Below are positions 12,216 through 12,285 of a stretch of DNA of 16,794 nt, piece after piece. The stretch is from a virus (lineage: Duplodnaviria; Heunggongvirae; Uroviricota; Caudoviricetes). Position numbers and translations under genes: made by a program. The notes beneath the pieces were generated by a model. It was given only the letters and a program-made list of their open reading frames with translations, was not told the DNA's origin and did no database searches. The stretch is taken from the IMG/VR virus record IMGVR_UViG_2547132127_000011; one strand, 5' to 3'. The first letter of the stretch is position 1, and every line of letters starts with the position of its first letter.

Positions 12216-12285
12216 TGAGGCTGTATGACGGGGTGGGGGGCGTTTTCAGGACAAACCCGACCCCGCCTACCTGGATGATATCGCC

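What the first reader, a model, noticed from the sequence alone, without database searches (positions are those of the whole stretch)
12216..12285. Candidate cos site between HNH and terS
The HNH-terS spacer holds a G-rich run GACGGGGTGGGGGGCG and a partially complementary CCCGACCCCGCC around a short spacer. HNH-dependent cos packaging in HK97-like systems places cos between HNH and terS, and GC-rich cohesive ends are typical.
Basis: inference. Interest (0 to 1): 0.45.

Follow-up and report, generated by a model that had tools for sequence, protein, structure and literature searches.

The report
Deleted cos site of decayed satellite
The flagged G-rich stretch is the surviving upstream piece of the DNA-packaging (cos) site of a capsid-forming phage satellite, but a 97-bp deletion has removed the predicted cut site, the likely terminase docking site and the start of the small-terminase gene, so this copy is a dead remnant rather than a working cos site.

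Summary
The G-run is the only such run in the window. The "complementarity" is no better than chance and is not conserved.

The window is a capsid-forming PICI next to phoQ. Hundreds of relatives have a ~122-bp spacer upstream of terS. This window lacks 97-99 bp of it, lost between two CCCCGCC repeats. Shigella flexneri SFBU1023 has the same junction.

One 15.5-kb metagenomic contig is a complete relative in excised, linear form. It ends 21 nt after the G-box and starts at CTCAAATTTTT. Exactly 10 nt that every integrated relative carries are missing between its ends. That is what an HK97-like 10-nt 3' overhang would leave. This places the cut site about 31-34 bp downstream of the G-run, inside the segment this window lost. 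The AT-rich putative TerS site and terS codons 1-7 are lost too.

The capsid gene is also broken by IS1 and a stop codon. So the location is right for the family, but the flagged motif is not the cohesive end and this copy is defunct. The G-run itself looks like a conserved cos sub-site: similar runs lie about 30 bp upstream of the ends of HK97 and other HNH-type cos phages.

The parts
11609..12049 (+). HNH endonuclease gene (146 aa), intact
   Evidence: Pfam HNH PF01844, E 1.8e-8. 39% identical to HK97 gp74, E 2e-19.
12033..12215 (+). Conserved 60-aa ORF of unknown function between the HNH gene and the cos region
   Evidence: Annotated as hypothetical protein WP_000174068.1 in relatives. No Pfam hit for 12042-12215.
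12229..12252 (+). G-box CGGGGTGGGGGGCGTTTTCAGGAC: the conserved upstream element of the cos region, retained in the window
   Evidence: Columns are at least 90-98% conserved over 157 unique spacers. Present in Shigella, Klebsiella, Kluyvera, Pluralibacter, Erwinia and Pectobacterium, with a variant in Pasteurella. It is the only G/C run of its kind in the window.
12253..12267 (+). Its last 7 nt, CCCCGCC (12261-12267), are the single retained copy of the direct repeat at the deletion junction.
   Evidence: Alignment with L001 and L002. Arm variability.
12261..12267 (.). Junction of a 97-99-bp deletion. Lost sequence: GGGCAC, the predicted 10-bp cohesive-end segment CGAACGCCTC, CTCAAATTTTTATGCACGGGAATTTTTTGAAAAATAAT..., the terS translation signals, the ATG and codons 1-7.
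   Evidence: all 60 best E. coli matches span 378-380 bp against 281 bp of query. The same junction occurs in S. flexneri SFBU1023 and in no other of 440 loci.
12268..12597 (+). 5'-truncated terS (P27 family). The frame is open from 12229. The first canonical in-frame start is GTG at 12286 (codon 16 of the intact gene), with no evident ribosome-binding site.
   Evidence: Pfam Terminase_4, E 1.4e-23. The intact protein begins MARPPKAPAYLDDIAVKQW. ORF list.
12581..14242 (+). terL (553 aa), intact, HK97 type
   Evidence: Pfam TerL_ATPase and TerL_nuclease. 27% identical to HK97 gp2, E 3e-47.
8002..9156 (+). Major capsid pseudogene: the start codon is replaced by the IS1 end, and there is an in-frame TGA at 8824-8826 (Trp to stop)
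   Evidence: Pfam Phage_capsid on 8050-8826.
7234..8001 (-). IS1 insertion (768 bp, 23-nt terminal inverted repeats, InsA/InsB)

Best explanation
Window 12216-12285 is the stump of the cos region of a decayed capsid-forming PICI (cf-PICI).

In intact relatives the roughly 122-bp spacer upstream of terS reads, from 5' to 3':
- a conserved G-box, GGGGTGGGGGnnGTTTTCAGGAC;
- about 21 bp of variable sequence of fixed length;
- a 10-bp C-rich segment (CGAACGCCTC in the E. coli lineage, CACCCGCCCC in the Klebsiella lineage);
- a nearly invariant AT-rich block, CTCAAATTTTTAyGCACGG..ATTTTTTTGAAAATAA;
- the terS start.

Inferred mechanism: TerS, TerL and HNH cut on either side of the 10-bp segment and leave 10-nt 3' cohesive ends, as in HK97. 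TerS docks on the T-tract about 23-29 bp downstream of the nick. The G-box, about three helical turns upstream on the side packaged last, acts as an auxiliary site. It may be cosQ-like or a docking site for HNH/TerL.

Shown: in this window a 97-99-bp deletion between two CCCCGCC repeats removed the 10-bp segment, the AT-rich block and terS codons 1-7 with their translation signals. Only the G-box and part of the variable stretch remain.

Inferred: this copy cannot be cut or packaged by its own terminase. Together with the IS1 insertion and the stop codon in the capsid gene, it is an immobilised remnant. The same deletion junction is present in the Shigella flexneri SFBU1023 genome.
For: Deletion. 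The alignment with two relatives shows the missing segment. All hits listed from E. coli genomes, the 80 IMG/VR loci and the 24 real spacers found in metagenome contigs carry the full spacer. The junction is shared only with S. flexneri SFBU1023.

Termini. Contig IMGVR_UViG_3300022664_000095 (15,518 bp) is a whole cf-PICI in the excised arrangement: terS, terL, int, primase, capsid, portal, HNH. It starts with CTCAAATTTTTACGCACGG and ends with ...GTTTTCAGGACAAAACCCAAGCCGCAAGGCAC (true contig ends). Its eight nearest integrated relatives have exactly 10 more nt (CACCCGCCCC or CGCCTGCCCC) between these two ends. The spacing is fixed in 142 of 145 anchored spacers, so the gap is not a natural allele.

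Supporting ends. The vB_KppS-Ant record, from induced particles, lacks 73 nt centred on the same spot compared with the integrated copy in K. pneumoniae ATCC 13883. UViG L221 ends 1 nt from the predicted nick.

HK97 parallel. TerL and HNH are homologues of HK97 gp2 and gp74. HK97 has a G10 run 32 nt before its 10-nt 3' overhang. Its TerS site is at +15..+29 and includes a T-tract at +24..+30. Anchored at the nick, identity to the HK97 cos region is 43-50 of 105 columns, against 33 +/- 4 in shuffles.

Conservation profile.
Against: The nick positions rest on one virion-like contig plus two weaker records. No read-level or wet-lab mapping was possible.

A naive gapped alignment of the HK97 and cf-PICI cos regions is not significant.

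This TerS (Pfam Terminase_4) shows no detectable sequence similarity to HK97 gp1. Transferring the TerS-site position from HK97 is therefore analogy only.

The Pasteurella nick used was placed by analogy.

Nothing tests whether the truncated terS is still translated from GTG 12286.
Confidence: 0.75

Rival explanations
1. One reading: the G-run and C-run dyad at 12229-12265 is itself the functional cos cleavage site or cohesive end, and this island can still be packaged.
For: The location is right for the family. The G-run is highly conserved. GC-rich cohesive ends are common.
Against: The virion-like contig extends 21 nt beyond the G-box, through the region of the C arm, before it ends. The C arm is the least conserved part of the spacer. 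The dyad is not above chance. In HK97 the equivalent G-run lies 32 nt outside the overhang. The window lacks the terS start.
Confidence: 0.05
2. The ends of the 15.5-kb contig, and of the Ant record, are assembly accidents. The real cos cut lies somewhere else in or near the spacer. The deletion then removed mainly the terS start and regulatory sequence.
For: Only one contig shows both ends. Metagenome assemblers can break at low-complexity C- or T-runs. The metagenome scan found no further end-bearing contigs.
Against: A circular or concatemeric template would give overlapping ends, not a clean 10-nt gap. The gap length equals the HK97 overhang, and its distance from the G-run matches HK97, VarioGold, phi105 and Diva, which have annotated or deposited ends. 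Three independent records break within the same 73 bp.
Confidence: 0.13
3. The spacer is a transcriptional signal for terS-terL (a promoter, a terminator or an RNA hairpin) rather than a packaging site.
For: It is an intergenic, conserved, AT-rich block just upstream of terS.
Against: There is no promoter-like or terminator-like site on the + strand in the window or in an intact relative. There is no Rfam match. Folding is no better than shuffled sequence. There is no covariation. Genome termini map here.
Confidence: 0.05
4. The 97-bp gap is a sequencing or assembly artefact of the window, and the real island is intact.
For: None of the 60 best E. coli complete genomes shows the deletion.
Against: The identical junction is present in an independent complete genome, S. 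flexneri SFBU1023. The deletion is flanked by a 7-bp direct repeat, as expected for slippage or microhomology repair. The island carries two other inactivating lesions.
Confidence: 0.02

Closest known systems
HK97 cos (HNH gp74-dependent, 10-nt 3' overhang; TerS site at +15..+29)
   Same: The gene order is HNH - cos - terS - terL. TerL and HNH are homologous. A G-run lies 32-34 nt upstream of a C-rich 10-bp segment. A T-tract lies about +23..+30 after the nick. The terS ATG is 50-60 nt after the nick.
   Different: TerS belongs to the P27/Terminase_4 family and has no detectable similarity to HK97 gp1. The sequences of the overhang and the boxes differ. An extra 60-aa ORF lies between the HNH gene and cos. 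In this window the core of the site is deleted.
cf-PICI EcCIEDL933 and relatives (Alqurainy et al., bioRxiv 10.1101/2022.09.08.507074; He et al., bioRxiv 10.1101/2025.02.11.637232)
   Same: The same island family and gene order: int, replication, capsid, protease, portal, connectors, hnh, terS, terL. O157 strains carry a 98%-identical hnh-terS segment. The papers report cohesive-end behaviour of the packaged DNA.
   Different: In the text I could read, these papers give no nucleotide-level cos site. The window's copy has lost cosN and the terS start, and its capsid gene is broken.
Lambda cos (cosQ - cosN - cosB)
   Same: Both have a tripartite layout: an upstream auxiliary element a few helical turns before the nick region, the nick region itself, and a TerS-binding region between the nicks and the terminase genes. 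This rests on my general knowledge; Cue and Feiss are cited within PMC11331095.
   Different: Lambda makes 12-nt 5' overhangs and uses no HNH protein. Its TerS is unrelated and has R sites and an IHF site. No sequence similarity was tested. A cosQ-like role for the G-box is inference only.
Cos sites of other HNH-associated cos phages with deposited ends (phi105, Paenibacillus Diva, VarioGold, Gordonia Eviarto, Bacillus Fah)
   Same: A 10-13-nt G-run or C-run lies 28-35 bp upstream of a 7-12-nt terminal segment, between the HNH gene and the genome end.
   Different: The strand of the run (G or C on top) and all flanking sequence differ. For several records I cannot verify that the ends are the physical ends.

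Membership tests
HK97-type HNH-dependent cos site | Lies between an HNH endonuclease gene and terS-terL, with an HK97-type large terminase | tested here: met
   Pfam hits. TerL against gp2, E 3e-47; HNH against gp74, E 2e-19.
HK97-type HNH-dependent cos site | Contains the terminase cleavage site, that is, the ends of packaged DNA map inside it | tested here: not met
   In relatives the ends of an excised-form contig map 21 and 31 bp after the G-box. That segment is absent from the window.
HK97-type HNH-dependent cos site | Staggered cut leaving roughly 10-nt 3' cohesive ends | tested here: inconclusive
   A 10-nt gap between the contig ends, compared with integrated relatives, is what end-repair of 3' overhangs would give. 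This rests on a single contig with no read-level data.
HK97-type HNH-dependent cos site | TerS recognition site shortly downstream of the nick (HK97: +15..+29, T-tract) | tested here: not met
   Relatives have GATTTTTTT at +21..+29, and HK97 has the same at +22..+30. The window has lost this block. Binding itself is not testable here.
HK97-type HNH-dependent cos site | Cleavage requires TerS + TerL + HNH | not testable with these tools
   This needs in vitro cleavage or genetics.
Capsid-forming PICI (cf-PICI) | A 10-18-kb island with int, a replication module, capsid, protease, portal, connectors, HNH, TerS and TerL, and no tail or lysis genes | tested here: met
   Pfam on 10 ORFs and annotation of relatives. 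The island spans about 1-14.5 kb, next to phoQ.
Capsid-forming PICI (cf-PICI) | Functional packaging module (intact capsid gene, terS and cos) | tested here: not met
   IS1 at the capsid 5' end and Trp-to-stop in the capsid gene. terS start and cos core deleted.
cosQ-like termination element (proposed role of the G-box) | Conserved element a few helical turns upstream of the nick, on the side packaged last | tested here: met
   The G-box ends 34 bp before the inferred overhang. It is conserved across genera and has counterparts in HK97 and other HNH-cos phages.
cosQ-like termination element (proposed role of the G-box) | Required for nicking at the downstream cos during termination of packaging | not testable with these tools
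   This needs mutagenesis with packaging assays.
Intrinsic terminator or structured hairpin | Stable conserved stem, with a T-run for a terminator | tested here: not met
   Folding z-scores are about 0. No terminator-like site on the + strand. Arm 2 varies without compensation.

The most novel reading that the evidence does not exclude
The G-run flagged here may be one instance of a general, apparently undescribed sub-site of HNH-dependent cos packaging. The pattern is a 10-13-nt G-run (or C-run on the other strand) about 28-35 bp, roughly three helical turns, upstream of the first nick. I saw it in cf-PICIs of at least seven genera and in HK97, VarioGold, Marinobacter AS1, Gordonia Eviarto, Bacillus Fah, phi105, Paenibacillus Diva, Arthrobacter Peas and Burkholderia FKKS2. 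It could work like lambda cosQ or as the docking site that positions HNH/TerL for the second-strand cut.

A further speculation: the window's deletion starts 6 bp before the predicted nick and is flanked by microhomology. It could be the scar of an in-situ terminase cut in the chromosome that was repaired by microhomology-mediated joining.
Probability: 0.35. Interest if true: 0.6.

Novelty: new member of a known kind. Interest (0 to 1): 0.35.

Why it matters
For this window, the finding changes the annotation. The island is not a mobilisable satellite with a cos site. It is an immobilised relic, with cos and the terS start deleted and the capsid gene broken.

For the family, the comparison gives a testable, nucleotide-level prediction of the cf-PICI cos site: a 10-nt 3' overhang (CGAACGCCTC in the E. 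coli lineage), a left end starting CTCAAATTTTT, and a G-box 34 bp upstream. The cf-PICI papers I could read do not give this.

The recurring G/C-run about 30 bp upstream of the nick in many HNH-type cos phages is a cheap target for mutagenesis. It bears on how HNH-assisted terminases make a staggered cut.

Tried and rejected
1. Hairpin or dyad as a functional structure: rejected. It is not above shuffled sequence and shows no covariation.

2. Promoter, terminator or known RNA family: nothing found.

3. Gapped global alignment of the HK97 and cf-PICI cos regions with a simple scoring scheme: not significant. Only the nick-anchored, ungapped comparison is above the shuffles.

4. TerS against HK97 gp1: no BLASTP similarity and no shared Pfam family. 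The TerS-site assignment is therefore analogy only.

5. Contig-end pile-up.
- IMG/VR relatives are mostly proviruses cut from genomes, so they are uninformative.
- The single metagenome scan used too loose an AT-rich pattern. It found 24 real spacers, none at a contig end.
- Locus L378 seemed to start at the predicted left end, but that end is a storage boundary (nt 1-2409 of a 22,479-nt contig), so it was not counted.
- Apparent ends in L096, L194, L143 and L258 are also storage boundaries.

6. UViG L221 ends 1 nt from the predicted nick. It may be a provirus trim rather than a physical end, so I counted it only as weak support.

7. Literature: no mapped cf-PICI cos site and no description of a G-run sub-site in the papers found. 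The library lacks most subscription-journal papers.

8. Pasteurella Pmp7 and Pmp8 records do not begin at cos. They informed conservation only.

Full report
**1. What the window is**

Pfam scans of the main ORFs identify these genes:
- an integrase (1-1230);
- a D5-type primase (3767-5515);
- a major capsid protein (8050-8826);
- a prohead protease (9196-9768);
- a portal protein (9770-10981);
- an HNH endonuclease (11609-12049);
- a P27-family small terminase (reading frame open from 12229 to 12597);
- an HK97-type large terminase (12581-14242);
- the host gene phoQ on the minus strand (15334-16794).

There are no tail or lysis genes. This is the gene set and order of a capsid-forming PICI (cf-PICI) as described in bioRxiv 10.1101/2022.09.08.507074. 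A conserved 60-aa ORF (12033-12215) sits between the HNH gene and the flagged stretch.

**2. The observation**

The G-run is the only 10-mer with at least 9 G or C in the 16.8 kb.

The complementarity is weak evidence:
- It is 9 of 10 positions over 10 nt with a 17-nt gap.
- There are 23 comparable inverted repeats in the window, and 3.4% of dinucleotide shuffles of the spacer produce one.
- Single-strand folding is no better than shuffled sequence, with z-scores of +0.2 and -0.4.
- No promoter-like or terminator-like site lies on the + strand, and there is no Rfam match.

**3. The spacer is a deletion remnant**

Every megablast hit listed from E. coli genomes came as two pieces spanning 97-99 bp more than the query. 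Alignment with E. coli AR_0013 and O157:H7 86-24 shows what the window lacks, shown in brackets:

CCCGACCCCGCC[GGGCACCGAACGCCTCCTCAAATTTTTATGCACGGGAATTTTTTGAAAAATAATCTGACGAAAAATAAGCATGGCAAGACCACCGAAAGCCCCCGCC]TACCTGG

The missing segment lies between two copies of CCCCGCC, and one copy is kept at 12261-12267. The lost DNA includes the terS ATG and codons 1-7; the intact protein begins MARPPKAPAYLDDIAVKQW. The first canonical in-frame start left is GTG at 12286, which is codon 16.

None of 80 IMG/VR relatives, none of the 60 best E. coli genomes and none of the 24 real spacers found in metagenome contigs has this deletion. The GTDB representative of Shigella flexneri, strain SFBU1023, does have the identical junction. 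It is 98.7% identical to window 9155-16792. The deletion is therefore real and is present in at least one independent genome.

The island has two further lesions:
- An IS1 element (7234-8001) abuts the capsid gene, whose ATG is gone.
- The capsid gene has a Trp-to-stop change at 8824-8826.

**4. Where cos is in intact relatives**

*Conservation.* I compared 157 unique spacers, together with examples from Klebsiella, Kluyvera, Pluralibacter, Erwinia and Pectobacterium and Pasteurella. The pattern is:
- a nearly invariant G-box, GGGGTGGGGGnnGTTTTCAGGAC;
- a conserved CACC;
- a C-rich 10-mer;
- a nearly invariant CTCAAATTTTTAyGCACGG..ATTTTTTTGAAAATAA.

The G arm never changes. The C arm changes freely without compensation.

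*Physical ends.* IMG/VR contig 3300022664_000095 (15,518 bp) is a complete cf-PICI in the excised arrangement: terS 61-417, terL, int in the middle, primase, capsid, portal, then HNH at the right end. Both of its ends are true contig ends.
- It starts with CTCAAATTTTTACGCACGGTGATTTTTTTGAAAATAAAAC.
- It ends with ...GGGGTGGGGGAGGTTTTCAGGACAAAACCCAAGCCGCAAGGCAC.

Its eight closest integrated relatives read ...AAGGCAC, then a 10-mer (CACCCGCCCC or CGCCTGCCCC), then CTCAAATTTTT.... Exactly 10 nt are therefore missing between the contig's two ends. The distance between the G-box and the AT block is fixed in 142 of 145 anchored unique spacers, so the gap is not a natural length variant.

Interpretation (inference): a circular or concatemeric template would give overlapping ends. 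5' overhangs would be filled in and appear duplicated at both ends. A clean gap is what end-repair does to 3' overhangs. The inferred cohesive end is therefore a 10-nt 3' overhang. In the E. coli lineage it would be CGAACGCCTC or CGACCGCCTC.

*Weaker support.*
- The vB_KppS-Ant record, made from induced particles, stops at the end of the G-box and restarts 22 nt before terS. It lacks the 73 nt that the integrated copy in K. pneumoniae ATCC 13883 has there.
- UViG L221 ends at GGGCACC, 1 nt from the predicted nick.

**5. Comparison with HK97**

TerL is 27% identical to gp2 (E 3e-47) and the HNH protein is 39% identical to gp74 (E 2e-19). The HK97 concatemer junction reads:

...GGGCAGGGGGGGGGATCAAATCTTCAAAACCTTTGCCCCAAATGAC[CGCCGCCAAA]|GTTTGAATTTAACGCTAACCCGATTTTTTTAG...ATG(+50)

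HK97 has a 10-nt 3' overhang, and its minimal TerS site is at +15..+29 (PMC11331095 and PMC9410871).

| Feature | HK97 | cf-PICI |
|---|---|---|
| G-run to overhang | 32 nt | 34 nt |
| T-tract after the nick | +24..+30 | +23..+29 |
| terS ATG | +50 | +61 |

Anchored at the nick and without gaps, identity to HK97 is 50, 43 and 48 of 105 columns for the Klebsiella, E. coli and Pasteurella types. Shuffled sequence gives 33 +/- 4.

Caveats:
- A naive gapped alignment is not significant.
- This TerS is Pfam Terminase_4 and is not detectably similar to gp1.
- The Pasteurella nick position was placed by analogy.

**6. Consequence for the window**

The deletion's left edge is 6 bp upstream of the predicted first nick. 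The window therefore lacks the whole cut region, the putative TerS site and the terS start.

Inference: the copy cannot be cleaved or packaged by its own machinery. In HK97 the TerS N-terminal arm makes a base-specific contact. Even a protein started at GTG 12286 would lack its 15 N-terminal residues. Whether that arm has the same role in this TerS family is unknown.

**7. What the G-box may do**

In the two complete cf-PICI genomes I checked, the G-box is again the only run of its kind. In HK97 the equivalent run is one of three in 39.7 kb.

I looked at the right ends of 14 HNH-associated phages with related TerL.
- Ten have a run of at least 8/10 G or C starting 41-58 nt before the record end: G-runs in HK97, VarioGold, AS1 and Eviarto, and C-runs in phi105, Diva, Peas, FKKS2 and Staph 47. 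Fah has GGGTAGGGGCGGG at the same position, which falls just below the 8-of-10 threshold.
- That position is about 28-35 bp before the terminal 7-12 nt.
- phi105 and VarioGold carry annotated cos ends.
- Four do not: IPK, Geobacillus E2, Caulobacter W2 (its record is cut inside the HNH gene) and BiPBO1.
- By my own estimate, a random 50%-GC sequence would show such a run in that window in about 1-2% of genomes.
- The sample is small and was not pre-registered. I could not verify that several of the records end at the physical ends.

The position, a few helical turns upstream of the nick on the side packaged last, resembles lambda cosQ. This is a lead, not a result. I found no paper describing it.

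**8. Verdict**

The feature is a known kind, an HK97-like HNH-dependent cos site in a cf-PICI, seen here as a deletion remnant.

Noticed in passing
window 7234-8001: A complete IS1 (768 bp, 23-nt terminal inverted repeats, InsA and InsB on the minus strand) is inserted exactly at the 5' end of the major capsid gene. The capsid ATG seen in relatives is gone.
   Followed up: yes
window 8824-8826: In-frame TGA in the major capsid gene where relatives have Trp (KNAVWVVNS becomes KNAV*VVNS). This is a second inactivating lesion of the island.
   Followed up: yes
L434 (Shigella flexneri SFBU1023, CP182556.1, 1160001-1168000), junction at 3102-3124: This is the only one of 440 fetched loci with the same cos/terS deletion junction. 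It is 98.7% identical to window 9155-16792. The window probably comes from a Shigella or close E. coli lineage in which the dead island is inherited vertically.
   Followed up: partly
right ends of HK97 (L085), VarioGold (L445), AS1 (L443), Eviarto (L451), Fah (L446), phi105 (L442), Diva (L449), Peas (L452), FKKS2 (L450), Staph 47 (L448): A 10-13-nt G-run or C-run recurs about 28-35 bp upstream of the terminal cohesive-end segment in HNH-associated cos phages of Proteobacteria, Firmicutes and Actinobacteria. Four of the 14 records sampled lack it.
   Followed up: partly
L015, L058 and others (IMG/VR loci), hnh-terS spacer: Some E. coli islands combine the left half of one spacer type (G-box and variable stretch) with the right half (AT block and terS) of another. 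The switch is near CCTCCTCAAATTTTT, so the cos cut region coincides with a recombination joint between the hnh side and the terS side.
   Followed up: no
window 12033-12215: A 60-aa basic ORF of unknown function (no Pfam hit) is conserved between the HNH gene and the cos region in E. coli and Klebsiella-type islands. It is absent from the Pasteurella islands and from HK97. It could be a packaging accessory protein.
   Followed up: no
L003 (vB_KppS-Ant, LR881103.1) 2036-4333: This 16.5-kb cf-PICI-like 'phage' record carries a 765-aa ORF after terL annotated as a tail tape measure protein. That is unexpected for an element said to lack tail genes. It may be a mis-annotation or accessory cargo.
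   Followed up: no
L086 (Klebsiella phage P12620-1, PQ569648.1) about 1140-1160: In this 106-kb record a cf-PICI-type terS-terL begins abruptly (..ATGCTGGCAAGACC..), with unrelated DNA and no HNH gene, G-box or AT block upstream. This looks like a chimeric join at or near the cos/terS start.
   Followed up: no
L378 (metagenome contig JAEHJW020008655.1, nt 1-2409): The stored stretch ends 1 nt before AAATTTTTACGCACGG, right at the predicted left end, although the contig continues to 22,479 nt. I do not know whether this is a coincidence of storage or a scaffold gap. It was not used as evidence.
   Followed up: partly
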